Source: Hormiphora californensis
Lineage: Eukaryota; Animalia; Ctenophora
DNA length: 64,000 nucleotides
Direction of reading: 5' to 3'
Assembly (NCBI GenBank): GCA_020137815.1
Contig: CM035353.1
Coordinates: 6,200,001-6,264,000, forward strand
Part shown: piece by piece, positions 13,212-63,700 of the stretch
Numbering within the stretch: position 1 is the first letter of the stretch
Layout of the letters: every line of letters starts with the position of its first letter
Translations under genes and position numbers: made by a program
Notes under the pieces: generated by a model
Told to the model about the DNA's origin: nothing
What the model saw: the letters and a program-made list of their open reading frames with translations, nothing else
The model's database searches: none

Positions 13212-16200
13212 CTATATAATATGCTTCTGTTTGTGTGCCCAATATGATGTATCTTTGTGGAGACATGCAAAACTTGAACTACCTGAAAGGTGGGGGAGAA
13301 GAGTGAGATATGATCTGTTAAATGATACACGTGATCTGTTTTCCAGTTTTATAACTATTTCAGATTTTGCAAATTGTTCGTATAGTAAAGTCGGATTCTT
13401 TAAACTGTCGGCCCCCTTTTTGTACACGTTTTGTACACGTTTTGTAAGCTTCGAACTGTAAGTTAGAACTAATAACCTGTATGTATTGGAACTATGTAGT
13501 AACTAATTTAGCACACATACCTGGGTCAATAGGGCAGTCTGCTTCGTCAGACTTATCCATACAGTCCAATGCACCATCACACCTCTCATTGTGCTCTATA
13601 CACTTCGTGTTCTGGTCACAGCTTATCTGGGTCGCCGAACACACTGTGGAAAACGTGATAATAGTAAATCCGTTTTTATTTATAATTCTCTATCGGCGAG
13701 TAAGTTTCAACGTGCCGGTTTATCAGTACCCTACTAATATTTAGTTCGACGTTCGATTGATTAACGATTGATATCAATCGTTATAAATCAATCGTTAATC
13801 TTGATCGCACGTCGAACTAAATTTTAGTAGGATACTAACAGTGGCACTAAAGAATAACTAATTACAATGATGCGGGGACAGAGAATAACTTACCAACAGG
13901 GCAAAATGACTCATCACTAGAATCTGAGCAGTCGGAATGTCGATCACACTTTCGCCGGAGGGGTATACACCGCCCACTGGAGAAGCATCTAAACTCCGTA
14001 TCCTCATCGCACGGTTCTGTTATAGGGGGGTTAGGTTCTGTTATAGGGATTGATTTAGGGTGGTATAAGAGTTATAGGAAGTGGTATAAGAGTTATAGGA
14101 GGGGGTATAAGAGTTATAGGAGGGGGTATAAGAGTTATAGGAGGGGGTATAAGAGTGGACAGTGTGCACAGTAGACTTATGCAGTCCATGCAACACACAC
14201 CATTCAGTAGATGGGTTCTGTTATAATAGCGGGGGTGGGGGTTTGATACACCATTCAAGACCCGAGGAGACGATTGGGTGCCAATTACAGAGTGGTGAAT
14301 GTAACAGAAAGGGGGGGGGGTAACTGTTCAGAAAAGGGGGTGGTGACTTTTACAGAAAGAGGGGGAGGGGGGTAACTGTTCAGAAAAGGGGGTGGTGACT
14401 TTTACAGAAGGGGGGGGATAACTGTTCAGAAAAGGGGGTGGTGACTTTTACAGAAAGGGGGGGGTGGTGAATGTAACAGAAGGGGGGGGGGGTGGCTGTA
14501 TCAGAGAGAGTGAGAAGTTGTAACATAAATAACGTGATATATAAAACGCTAACCTGAGCTACAACCCGCTTCATCACTACCATCGCTACAATCACTAATC
14601 CCATTACACCTTTTCTTGTAGCTCAAGCATTTTCCATCACACGCAACCTCGTATAGTTGACACTGGCCTGAATTAAATACAGGGTAATATAACTCGGGGA
14701 AATATTGGAAATTACACTCTTATTATTTGCTAACGATTGTAATTTTGAGGACACTAAAGAAGTTAGATCAGATAACTCGCCTGCACTGCTGCCCTCCCAT
14801 AAGTCATGGCATTATATGAGTGGTTTTAATAACAAATACTTTAGTAGTACAGTCGGACCCCGATTTAGTGGCCCCCGATTTAGCGGCACCCCGATTTAGT
14901 GGCAGGATTTTTTCCCGATATAGGAAATTAACATTATTTGACCCCGATTTAGTGGACACCCCGATTTAGTGGACAAACCCGAGGATGCCACTAAATCGGG
15001 GTCTGACTGTAGTTGCGTTATTATGTGCATGCTGACCGTACAATTTCTGATAATATCATGCACGTGTAATCACGTCGTTACATGTGTAAGTATGATCAGC
15101 TGTACTCTCTATAGTCTCTGATCTCTTTCCATCTCTATTTCTATCTCTAGTCGCTCTCTTTCTATCTCTATCTCCCCCATTCTATAAATTTAAACGTCTT
15201 TTCTTATCCAGCTCCCTCTCAGCTACTCTCCCTTGCTAGATGAAAAGGTAACAAGCAAACATATATGCTATACCGGAAGTCTCTTGTGTGTGTGAGAGAG
15301 AGAGAGAGAGAGAGAGAGAGAGGGAGAGAGAGAGAGAGTGAGATAGATAATGAGAGAGATAGTCAGGAGAGAGCGAGACAGACAGACAGACGGAAAAAGA
15401 GCAAAATAAGTACGATCAGTTACAGTAATTTTGGAGCTGTAAGGAAAGTTGTGAAGGTCGGCATACGACGACCACGACCCAGTACAGTAGTAAGAGACAC
15501 TAGCGTTGTACATGCAAATTGCAATTTTATGCGTGTGCCACGATAGTGTCTCTAGTTACTAACCCAAGCCACTACCTGATCATGCTCGCCCTAATTAACT
15601 CCCAATTAATTATCATAACTCACCTGTACACAACAGGGGGTTCATAACTCACCTGCACACGGATTAACAGGGTGCTCATCACTTCCGTCCCTACAATGTT
15701 GGATATCATCACACTCGTGTTGCCTGGCAATGCACTGGTCCCCACTTCTACAGCTAAACTCCCTCGCATCATCACAGTCCATTGTCCTCGCAATACTACT
15801 TGTCACCGCCACTAAGTAGCCAGGTTGTTGGTAGGTGAACAAACTATCGGTATGTTCTAGTGTGTGTTAGTGGAGTGTTTGTGTGCAGGACACGTGCAGC
15901 TGGGACATTGAACATGTAGAAGATTCACTCAGGACACGAACATGTATAGAAGAGATACATTGAATACATTGAATACATTGAATACACAACACATGTCATA
16001 TTGTATTAGTATAGACGGGGTACATTGAATACACTCACATGTATGCTGACGCTGTGTATTGTGTACAGTGTATGAAAACATAGACACGTGTACAGACATT
16101 TAAACAGTTTATTCGGGGTCTCATTAATATAATTTTATCGGAGGAATATATTTTATGCATTAGAATTGCATATTATGAATTATATACACTTCGTCGTCAT

Positions 16201-60700: not shown

Positions 60701-63700
60701 GGCTGTGCTCTCTCTTTCTCTCTCTCTCTCTATCTCTATCTCTATCTTTCTCTCACTCGCCCCGGTGGTTCAAATTGCCCCGGTTTACCCTAATGAAATT
60801 AGCCTTGAACTTCGAACCTCAGTGTGTGTCACGCGGTTAAGATCTCAACACGCACCACCAACTTCAGTGTGTCTCCTCCGCACCGAGGGTTAATAACTCG
60901 AGCGAAAGCTAGAGAACAACATTTAACAGTTGTGGATTGAGTAAACTAACTATTTGCAGGTCCAAACTAATTCCCTGAGCTCTCAACTTGTTGTCTACGC
61001 TATATTTTATATTGGGTGTATTACAAATCCATTTCTGTACGTGGTATCTTCCAAAGCAATCAGGGCAAGCTTGCGTCGTATCACCAAAAAACGACGAACA
61101 AACAAGAACTTCAAGTACGTATGATACAGCTGAGAAACAGTCGAATAACTATTATAGTGCTGATACTACTGTAATCATGCTATAACATTAACCCTTGTTC
61201 CGTTCAGTAGGTCCCCAGCGGGCCACCAAAGGAGGGTGTTTTCTGATGTGGGTTATACTACGAGACGAGCTGAAGATGATGGGGTTGTGGCCCTTCCTCT
61301 GGGATCTTCCCAGCCTCCTGCTAATACGGAAGTCAGAAACATGACTCTATGAAGGGGAGAGAGGGAAAGAGATAGACACAGAGATATATAGACACAGAGA
61401 TAGGAAAGATGATGGTTTATGACAAGATGTGTTGTGTCTTGAATTTGTTAAACATAAAATATAATTGTATTCACTCCACTGTTCTATTTGCCTAGCTAAA
61501 CTCTGTTTCGCGTGCACCAAATGTAAAGGAAGGTTAGGACATAGGGTAGCGACTGGCTAGTTGAAATGGCGTCTAATTTGAAACACCACCTCTATAATAA
61601 CAGGCCAGCAGGTGCACCAGATTTGGATTTTTAGACATCTGTGGGCTAGTCAGAACTCAAGCCATTTCAAATAGCCAGTCGCTACCCTACCTAACAATGT
61701 TCTCTATCGGTTACCTGTTTGTATAATTTTCAGCATTCGAGTTTGGATTATCTTCTTCCTTTTATTTATTTTGTTGGTGACGCAGTCACCTCTACATCAG
61801 CCGCGTGCAGCTAAACGAAGCCTTTCCTAGATCCTCAATGTCTGTCCTGCTCGTTATACCAGACCCTTTCAAAATGTTTCACTTTATTAATAGTGTAGCT
61901 CCCAAAATTTGGTCTAAATTATTCCAAAGAGTATCTTGTATTGAAGAATGTGTGTGATTAACAAATTAACAAATATAATTATGGTACAATGGTGTAAAAA
62001 CTAAAAATGCTCCGAAATCCCGGTGGAGCCGGGTCGAAACCCCTTACTGTGCTACGGTGTACCTTATAATATGGGTGTGATAGTTATACAAATTATATAT
62101 AACCCCTTGGGGTGGCGGCCTGAATATGAATATGTGTAGTCACTTCACAATAACTAAATCTGTAATATAAAACTATCCCACAGGTGGAGGGTGTTACATC
62201 ATCCCAGTACTGGATCAATACAAATGTCCCTGCACGTGGTGAACGACGGTGGTACAGTCGATACAATAGTGGACACTGACACACTGTATGATAACACATG
62301 TCGAGGTGGCAGAATAGGTAAATTAAGTGATATATATTGGCTTGATAACTATAGGGTGCTATCGAGATTGTTAGCACACACTCGTTGATTGAGTGAGACG
62401 GATAGTGTCGGTGCAAGTCACTGAGGTCAAGCAAGGGACCGTATTGAGCGCTATTATCTTTGCTTGGCCGCATCCAATAGTCGGACTGCCTCATGGATAG
62501 AGAAATAGCCACATGTACATGCTAAAAAATAGGGTGAGAGATATATCAGTGGTAGAATAATTTATTAGTAAACGTGAGATTGTTATGAATTATGGTAATT
62601 GTTAACTATAGGGCGAGAGAAAGTCTCAGGTTCCAGTTAAATAGGTTAATGCAACATATTAGTTAGTTACTAATATTATCCAGCTAATATTATCCAGCTA
62701 ATAACGTGTTGTCAGGTGTGTTCTCTCAGCGACAGTGGGGTGCAATATTCGCTAATGTCAGAGCCTACTGTCTCTCTCCCCTCAACTATGCTGCAAAGTT
62801 TGAGGGCAACACGAGAATTCGTATTGGTGGTCTCATGGGAGAGTTGGGGGTCACACGGTCTTTCCAGATAAGGTAAGGGGGACTCCCGAGAGGGAGAGAG
62901 TTTACCACCTGTCCACTCCTTTATGGGCAATCTTGCACAGATGTCTATGTCACCAAGGGGGGAGGGGGTTTGATGTTTTCAGTCCACACGACACAAAGTA
63001 ATTGAATTTACAGTCGGTTAGAATAGCATGACTCCATTACTAATGTCAGTTCATTTGGTTAATACCACACCTTTTATTCAGTGCCTGGTTCAGAATATCA
63101 GACTACCCCATAACGGATGGGATATATCCCATACTTTGTCGAGACACAAGCACCAGCCAACCTCTCTGTCTTTTCATCAACTCTGGTAAGCTTGCCAGAG
63201 CAATATTAAGCACTTTAATTCATGATCCTTTCAAATAAGAACGGAGTGGTTGCTCAAACTTTCCTTGTTCCCTTGATCACAATGAATTTATTCTGACCCT
63301 AATATATCGCCTCCGGATTTACCGTACAGAACCCTGTCGCCCAAGCATCCCGGTAAATCGGGATACTAACTTTGTTCCTCCCAACTAGGTGGCGAGGTGG
63401 TAGCTAGTTATGGTTCACAGACGATAGTAACAGATCTAACTGTTACAAAAAATACATGGACATTAGCGGTGAGTAGAATATTCTACCTACCCGATCTAGT
63501 TTAATGCCGAAACACACATCCCTCTAGCTCGACCCGTTTTTAGAACATAACAAGGGACACCCTCTATGTACGAAGATCTCCCTCCCCAGTTTTAACTAAA
63601 ACATACTGAATTCATATTTCATATCTATAGGTCCTGCAGTACGATATGTAATGGTACTAATCCTGAATTCATATATAGGTCCTACAGTACGATATGCAGC

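What the first reader, a model, noticed from the sequence alone, without database searches (positions are those of the whole stretch)
14016..63700. Window-wide pattern: exon-intron junctions are preferentially duplicated or amplified
Seen: at least seven independent repeats whose unit straddles a working splice site. Donors: x16 (20406-21086), x27 (35946-37136), x2 (15612-15660) and a degenerate run (38941-39110). Acceptors: x6 (44322-44661), x3 (14016-14225) and x2 (63606-63698). Other minisatellites start within a few nt of donors (26833-27033, 42797-42972, 48188-48232). In each case the copy contiguous with the exon body is the one that preserves the domain. Inference: either a mutational process targets junctions (staggered breaks, R-loops, RNA-templated repair), or junction-spanning duplications are the exonic duplications that selection tolerates because extra copies fall into the intron. 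Either way, splice-site choice must be strongly proximity-based. I know of no description of this as a system.
Basis: partly seen in the sequence, partly recalled or inferred. Interest (0 to 1): 0.85.

Follow-up and report, generated by a model that had tools for sequence, protein, structure and literature searches.

The report
Splice-junction repeats in comb jelly introns
In what is likely a comb-jelly genome, six small DNA duplications, plus one doubtful one, have copied a predicted exon-intron boundary into the neighbouring intron; they are likely harmless scars that survive because they spare the exon, as in known human genes, and their modest excess at boundaries is too weak to show that boundaries are targeted.

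Summary
The repeats are real. With 55 introns modelled by homology and open frames (no RNA support), 6 of 23 local duplications span a junction: donors x16, x27, x2; acceptors x6, x2, x2. The 38941 run matches its junction over about 11 nt only; the 'x3' is a tandem pair plus a distant 12-nt match. Contigs of two samples hold the x27 array, a related organism's contig lacks it and has at least two copies of the x6 unit. Enrichment is modest: 7 of 110 junctions against 2.8 expected (ratio 2.5, bootstrap 1.2-4.1), 4 of 88 against 2.5 in short introns, in one hand-picked window. Exon interiors hold none (0 of 12,488 positions; introns 2%). Best reading: a duplication-prone genome plus a selection filter, the same kind of thing as human F7, CBS, 6-16, LMNB2 and PDGFA minisatellites. 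Targeting of junctions stays open (about 20%). 'Proximity-based' choice is unshown, and some acceptor decoys are in frame. The scan noted this pattern before, on other DNA of this genome and in annelid, urchin and protist genomes.

The parts
20406..21087 (-). 42-bp (40-48) minisatellite x16; first unit spans the LRP-A exon 3 donor (21064|21063); 15 decoy donors, all followed by an in-frame stop at the next codon
   Evidence: 5-6 nt shared between exon and intron at the breakpoint
35947..37136 (+). 41/46/52-bp minisatellite x27; first unit spans gene B exon 4 donor (35961|35962); decoys give a stop after 12 codons; an older copy without the donor follows at about 37158-37203
   Evidence: in contigs of X3 and X5, absent from X7 record 23
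15613..15677 (-). two-copy duplication (29-nt spacing) of the LRP-A exon 6 donor (15653|15652)
38939..39110 (+). degenerate run of a short GAG|GTAA-type motif next to gene B exon 10 donor (38943|38944); junction origin likely but match only about 11 nt
44321..44663 (+). 60-bp array x6; last unit spans gene B exon 19 acceptor (44652|44653) with 11 exon bases; copies 2-5 are in frame and stop-free (+20n aa)
   Evidence: at least two copies in X7 record 28
14013..14048 (-). two tandem copies (21 nt) of the LRP-A exon 8 acceptor (14017|14016); decoy adds 7 aa in frame and lacks the branch-like motif of the real site
14214..14225 (-). 12-nt third match to the 14016 acceptor, 201 nt upstream; not tandem
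63606..63696 (+). two-copy duplication (48 nt) of an acceptor (63678|63679) of the LamG-like gene; decoy gives a stop after 6 codons
26792..27026 (-). 33-bp intronic array starting 12 nt after a YHYH-gene donor; does not span it
42794..42972 (+). 13-bp intronic array starting 11 nt after gene B exon 13 donor
48188..48230 (+). 22-bp two-copy intronic repeat starting 1 nt after gene B exon 23 donor
   Evidence: score 12, best of 54 control introns 9.5
13521..23194 (-). host gene LRP-A (LDL-receptor-related), 9 modelled exons, open frame
30217..49276 (+). host gene B: LRR-cadherin-EGF-TSP3-TSP C-terminal protein, 26 modelled exons
   Evidence: homologues P0135, P0139
62184..63841 (+). host gene, 5 modelled exons, open frame; 'LamG-like' is my own label (no Pfam hit for the last exon)

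Best explanation
These are local tandem duplications, likely made at short matching sequences and in a few cases likely amplified later, in a genome whose short introns are full of such duplications; those that hit an exon interior are likely removed by selection, while those that straddle a predicted exon edge likely survive because the spare copies land in the intron. Shown: units, copy numbers in the assembly, reading-frame outcome of each decoy, about 2% of intron positions and no exon-interior position duplicated, x27 absent from and x6 present in at least two copies in a relative's contigs. Inferred: slippage or microhomology end joining as the origin; unequal exchange as the amplifier; use of the exon-contiguous site (first donor met, exon-side definition of the acceptor), with decay of stop-bearing leak products. 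Part of the 2-2.5-fold excess would follow from ascertainment: one of the two copies is held constant by selection, so junction echoes stay recognisable up to about twice as long (reasoning, not measured).
For: Exon interiors 0 of 12,488 positions duplicated vs 2.0% in introns. 16 of 23 events do not touch a junction. Short introns alone: 4 of 88 junctions vs 2.48 expected. Per-intron null: 3.4-3.5 expected, P(>=6) 0.09-0.11. A ratio of 2 or less is reached in 24% of bootstrap samples at score 13. Microhomology at the x16 breakpoint (5-6 nt) and an 8-nt match flanking x6. x27 is lineage-specific while its donor is shared (X7 record 23). Same architecture in five human genes, where only the first one to three donors are used (PMC1557585, abstract, discussion and introduction passages).
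Against: The excess is nominally significant in most nulls: 7 of 110 vs 2.83, P 0.026, bootstrap lower bound 1.2; 5 of 16 non-spanning events lie within 15 nt of a junction vs 1.3-1.7 expected, P 0.008-0.02; long introns 3 of 22 vs 0.35. Two of three copies of a small mobile element sit within about 12 nt of a donor. Another window of this genome was noted for exon-end copies (e1-10417509, not checked). Three of the six cases are large, nearly identical arrays, for which the ascertainment argument does not apply. No RNA shows which site is used.
Confidence: 0.64

Rival explanations
1. Exon edges are real mutation hot spots. In a very polymorphic animal, exons pair well between alleles and introns do not, so homologous repair likely stalls at the exon edge and is finished by microhomology joining, leaving a short duplication, sometimes with the other allele's copy. 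Open DNA at exon edges could add breaks and insertions.
For: Nominal 2.1-2.8-fold excess; clustering within 15 nt; allele differences of up to 27 gap positions in single contigs across introns; published 3.2% heterozygosity with many non-coding indels in a ctenophore (PMC8527503, passages; context only, the window's species was not determined); aborted repair plus polymerase theta makes tandem duplications in worms (PMC8654963, abstract); both exon-part variants found in several copies are silent; mobile element at two donors.
Against: Silent changes are 4 of 10 distinct substitutions against 0.24 expected, P 0.19 (the count was made by eye, and extending one alignment would make it 5 of 12). 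Duplicated share is flat at 2-3.4% from 1 to 80 nt from the junction, not peaked at the edge. No excess in short introns alone. One selected window.
Confidence: 0.22
2. Some decoys are used and give real isoforms or tune gene dosage: in-frame acceptor copies would add 20n aa to a TSP3 repeat (44413-44593) or 7 aa to an LDLa linker (14037); donor arrays would send part of the RNA to decay.
For: In-frame, stop-free decoys with scores like the real site, each x6 copy with the same branch-like motif. Second and third donors are used in human CBS and 6-16 (PMC1557585 passages). Two x6 copies persist in a relative.
Against: The oldest x6 decoy is out of frame in the window (302 nt) and 58 nt from the real site in X7 (my arithmetic). 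Only the last copy gives the homologue's C-P-x3-N-P-x-Q spacing. x27 is not conserved.
Confidence: 0.07
3. The introns themselves arose from these duplications (intron gain by tandem duplication) or the AG|GT units act as recursive splice points.
For: Four of the seven units hold AG|GT. An acceptor-spanning duplication made a new intron in potato (PMC4974935, abstract); PMC2812944 (passages) reports new introns from repeats at boundaries.
Against: Each unit matches one end of its intron only; X7 has the x27 donor and first 18 intron bases without the array. The only donor-like site in the 63631 copy would leave a 31-nt intron, below the window's minimum of 75.
Confidence: 0.03
4. The arrays are assembly artefacts.
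For: The assembly has local consensus errors: about a dozen frame breaks at 33750-34950 where contigs show 1-base differences.
Against: X3 record 8 runs from exon 4 into the second x27 copy; X3 and X5 both show raised depth and the 41-bp variant; X7 record 28 bridges two x6 copies. Copies carry their own variants.
Confidence: 0.04

Closest known systems
Human minisatellites whose first monomer spans an exon-intron boundary: F7 IVS7 (37 bp, 5-9 copies), CBS IVS13, 6-16 intron 2 (25 pseudo-sites), LMNB2 (100 bp), PDGFA intron 4 (81 bp); PMC1557585 (abstract, discussion, introduction passages seen)
   Same: First unit holds exon end plus donor; identical pseudo-donors reiterated in the intron; unit 37-100 bp and 5-26 copies, like x16 and x27.
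   Different: Here 6-7 of 110 junctions in one window, three of them acceptors, in short introns of a likely ctenophore; site use and allele lengths not measured here.
Variable internal tandem repeats at exon-intron boundaries in human segmental duplications; PMC2812944 (abstract and passages seen)
   Same: Minisatellites of about 30 bp at exon-intron boundaries.
   Different: There they lie in young paralogues and are linked to new introns and alternative transcripts; no such product is shown here.
Intron gain by a duplication crossing an intron-exon boundary in potato RdRp; PMC4974935 (abstract seen)
   Same: Tandem duplication that includes an acceptor, branch site and exon start.
   Different: There the upstream copy became an exon with a new intron; here exon parts are 4-23 nt and no new intron is plausible.
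Tandem duplications from aborted homologous repair joined by polymerase theta; PMC8654963 (abstract seen)
   Same: Offers a route to tandem duplications with microhomology.
   Different: Shown in repair-mutant worms; no link to splice junctions seen in the abstract; not tested here beyond microhomology.

Membership tests
Junction-spanning minisatellite (F7 IVS7 type) | first (or last) monomer spans an exon-intron boundary | tested here: met
   x16, x27, x6 and three two-copy cases against homology-based models; junctions not RNA-confirmed
Junction-spanning minisatellite (F7 IVS7 type) | splice site reiterated unchanged in the intron | tested here: met
   15 of 15 x16 decoys score as the real donor; 24 of 26 x27 decoys within 0.8 bits
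Junction-spanning minisatellite (F7 IVS7 type) | only the exon-contiguous site, or the first few, is used | not testable with these tools
   no RNA holder listed; X10 contigs do not bridge any junction listed
Junction-spanning minisatellite (F7 IVS7 type) | copy number varies between alleles | tested here: inconclusive
   short contigs cannot span the arrays; x27 in two samples, absent from the relative's contig
[quoted passage not shown] | the intron's ends derive from the duplication and the intron is missing where the duplication is missing | tested here: not met
   units match one end only; X7 keeps the x27 donor without the array
   ratio 2.1-2.8, bootstrap 1.2-4.1 at score 13, 0-5.6 at score 18; short introns 4 of 88 vs 2.5
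Inter-allele repair duplication (aborted homologous repair plus end joining) | microhomology at breakpoints | tested here: met
   5-6 nt at x16, 8 nt flanking x6; does not separate it from slippage; 3 arrays inspected by script
Inter-allele repair duplication (aborted homologous repair plus end joining) | copies differ from the live exon mainly at silent sites | tested here: inconclusive
   4 of 10 vs 0.24 expected, P 0.19
hAT-like miniature element (for the 19091 echo; family label recalled) | 8-bp target-site duplication | tested here: met
   8 of 8 at 19091, 7 of 8 at 61486, 6 of 8 (8 of 8 with a 4-nt slip) at 839
hAT-like miniature element (for the 19091 echo; family label recalled) | terminal inverted repeats shared with an autonomous transposase element | not testable with these tools
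   only a few terminal bases are inverted; no genome held

The most novel reading that the evidence does not exclude
In hyper-variable animals the exon edge is itself a mutation hot spot: homologous repair stalls where conserved exon meets divergent intron and leaves duplications and insertions there, so that several percent of all splice sites acquire intact decoy twins. Comb jellies would then be a natural genome-wide library of duplicated donors and acceptors, and would show that even 100-200-nt introns are spliced by exon-side definition.
Probability: 0.2. Interest if true: 0.7.

Novelty: new member of a known kind. Interest (0 to 1): 0.32.

Why it matters
As single cases these repeat what five human genes already show. 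What is of use is the density: 5-6% of junctions in this window carry an intact twin, three of them acceptors, where a first-AG rule would pick the decoy. With RNA this would be a ready test of how an early-branching animal with short introns chooses among identical splice sites. If the excess held genome-wide it would point to a repair bias at exon edges and a raw supply for exon extension and intron gain.

Tried and rejected
No whole genome held, so no genome-wide test. No RNA holder listed; X10 gave 29 contigs and no spliced joint among the rows shown. X9 laid nothing. Metagenome scan with the nested sulfotransferase: 68 pattern hits, none a relative. Look-alike windows in other genomes: none. 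One search missed x16 and 14016 by design (query length, array collapse) and under-scored x6 (collapse out of register); one search replaces them. Of 47 self-match clusters I dropped 24 before the event test: 12 outside modelled genes, 7 scoring under 15 (shuffles give 6-8 at 13, 0-2 at 15), 5 inside dispersed repeats; my repeat mask is window-only and incomplete, which makes P values too small. Regions 3.2-13.3 kb and 49.3-58 kb have no intron models. One of the 7 hits (19091) is a transposon target duplication; without it 6 vs 2.83, P 0.068. 'Gene B is a pseudogene' rejected: applying 8 of 77 listed indels lengthens open stretches from 123 to 216 and 170 codons, exons 2-26 are open. 'Acceptor duplications are all multiples of 3' (60, 21, 48) dropped: the oldest x6 decoy is out of frame and 63631 has a stop. 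Two papers sought by id were not held. Literature searches found no genome-wide test of junction enrichment and no ctenophore report; the library lacks most subscription papers; no supplements were read.
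Full report
Setting. The window is intron-rich animal DNA. The best hit of the large LRP exon is a Bolinopsis microptera protein, so a ctenophore is likely; the species was not determined and no whole genome is held. From homologues and three-frame reading I modelled 7 genes with 55 introns (110 junctions). Gene B exons 2-26, LRP-A, LRP-B, YHYH and the last gene read without stops. 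Median intron length is 201 nt after collapsing arrays. No junction has RNA support.

Observation. One search lists every copy. x16: 16 identical donors. x27: 27 copies, 26 with an intact donor. Two donors at 15652/15623. Six acceptors at 44351-44653, two at 63631/63679, two at 14037/14016. The 38941 run is a degenerate repeat that matches the junction with score 11. The three near-donor arrays start 12, 11 and 1 nt inside their introns. So six clear cases and one doubtful. I found two more echoes: a weak one of acceptor 38840 and a 13-nt one of donor 19091 that is a transposon target duplication.

Real DNA. Contigs of X3 (possibly the assembly's own sample) and X5 (another sample and study) both show raised depth on x27 and its 41-bp variant, and X3 record 8 runs into the second copy. 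In X7 (organism B) record 23 follows the same donor for 18 intron bases and then leaves, with no cover on the array: x27 likely arose after the split. X7 record 28 bridges 44173-44361 and 44611-44782 in one 389-bp contig, which is at least two copies of the x6 unit; contig building could hide more. The assembly has local 1-base errors, so copy numbers are approximate.

Enrichment. A lag-based detector gave 47 clusters; 23 score 15 or more, lie in modelled genes and are not inside dispersed repeats (drops listed under Tried and rejected). Six span a junction, seven with the doubtful run. Random placement expects 2.1-3.1 (global nulls) or 3.4-3.5 (same intron): P 0.012-0.11 for six, 0.002-0.035 for seven. 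A boundary test that keeps all intronic duplications as background gives 7 of 110 junctions against 2.83 (ratio 2.5, bootstrap over introns 1.2-4.1, P 0.026); 6 against 2.17 at score 15; 3 against 1.42 at score 18 (P 0.17); short introns 4 of 88 against 2.48; long introns 3 of 22 against 0.35. Without the transposon case, 6 against 2.83, P 0.068. Five of 16 non-spanning events lie within 15 nt of a junction against 1.3-1.7, yet the duplicated share is flat from 1 to 80 nt and falls to 1.2-1.8% further in. The window was picked because it looked this way, so these P values overstate. Result: a possible 2- to 2.5-fold excess, not a demonstration.

Filter. Exon interiors of the modelled genes hold 0 of 12,488 duplicated positions against 2.0% in introns. 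The only large exonic array in the window is frame-keeping (18 bp x35 in a single-exon sulfotransferase outside that count). A duplication over a junction leaves one copy attached to the exon body and puts the rest in the intron, so it can be neutral. One copy is then held by selection, which likely keeps old echoes visible longer (inference).

Mechanism. Breakpoints show short matches: 5-6 nt at x16 and 8 nt flanking x6, as expected from slippage or microhomology joining. Every unit joins exon to its own intron, which excludes a spliced RNA template. Amplification by unequal exchange is inferred from the mixed variant order along x16 and x27. The relative's data fit a two-step history: an old two-copy state (x6) and lineage-specific expansion (x27).

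Splice choice. All decoys of the four listed donor cases lead to a stop within 1-12 codons. Among acceptors, 63631 and 44351 give stops, but 44413-44593 and 14037 are in frame and stop-free. The real sites at 14016 and 63679 have a canonical branch-like motif at -15 and -19 that their decoys lack, though 63631 has looser matches and scores higher overall; the six x6 copies share one motif. In all cases the copy closest to the partner site across the intron is a decoy, so plain proximity predicts the wrong site; first-come donor use and exon-side definition predict the right one. This is untested here: no RNA holder was listed and X10 did not bridge a junction in the rows shown.

Known cases. 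PMC1557585 (abstract, discussion, introduction passages) describes F7, CBS, 6-16, LMNB2 and PDGFA minisatellites of this design and shows upstream-first donor choice for F7. PMC2812944 (passages) and PMC4974935 (abstract) cover repeats and duplications at boundaries. PMC10078293 (passages) catalogues splicing-linked repeats but the passages seen do not test junction overlap. Ten searches found no genome-wide enrichment test and no ctenophore report. The scan itself noted the pattern in annelids, an urchin, a protist and another piece of this genome; these are unchecked notes.

Open possibility. Prompted by e1-10417509, I tested whether copies look like other alleles: 4 of 10 distinct changes are silent against 0.24 expected, P 0.19. 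Contigs show large intronic allele differences, and a ctenophore is reported at 3.2% heterozygosity (PMC8527503 passages). Aborted repair can make tandem duplications (PMC8654963 abstract; lead from e1-10419452). Two of three copies of a small element sit within about 12 nt of donors (post hoc P about 7e-4). Together these keep an exon-edge hot spot alive at about 20%.

Verdict. Real features, a known kind, best explained by frequent local duplication plus selection. Interest 0.32; 0.7 if the hot spot holds genome-wide.

Noticed in passing
window 760-830, 18954-19085, 61488-61700 (all - strand): Three copies of a small non-coding element with 8-bp target duplications; two lie 5 and 8-12 nt downstream of splice donors (19091, 839), the third carries another inverted-repeat element inside it.
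   Followed up: partly
window 33750-34950: About a dozen frame breaks in gene B exon 1; contigs of three runs are 1-2 bases shorter over these stretches, so mostly consensus errors, apparently both alleles' bases written in tandem.
   Followed up: partly
window 30217-49276: LRR-cadherin-EGF-TSP3-TSP C-terminal gene with the architecture of lancelet and starfish proteins P0135 and P0139; no ctenophore or vertebrate match among the 36 hits.
   Followed up: partly
window 39508-40596 (-), 45478-46146 (-), 60084-60483 (-): Nested antisense genes: a sulfotransferase and an unknown 222-aa ORF in gene B introns, a kringle-like gene (label recalled) in a GPCR intron.
   Followed up: partly
window 52155-52785: Frame-keeping 18-bp x35 repeat (GISDPE) in the stem of a single-exon sulfotransferase; open in several frames.
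   Followed up: no
window 38385/38386: GC-AG intron in gene B.
   Followed up: no
window 22224-22272 (-): 13-nt copy that starts exactly at the GT of donor 22273, 36 nt downstream, just before the 13-bp array 22133-22216.
   Followed up: no
window 3009-3218 (-): Signal-peptide-like exon preceded by an in-frame 21-bp array; LRP-B may be a separate paralogue or the second half of LRP-A with an internal start.
   Followed up: no
window 25745-28366 (-): Secreted YHYH-domain gene with five introns.
   Followed up: no
window 6700-8800: Homopolymer-rich stretch that looks like low-accuracy consensus.
   Followed up: no
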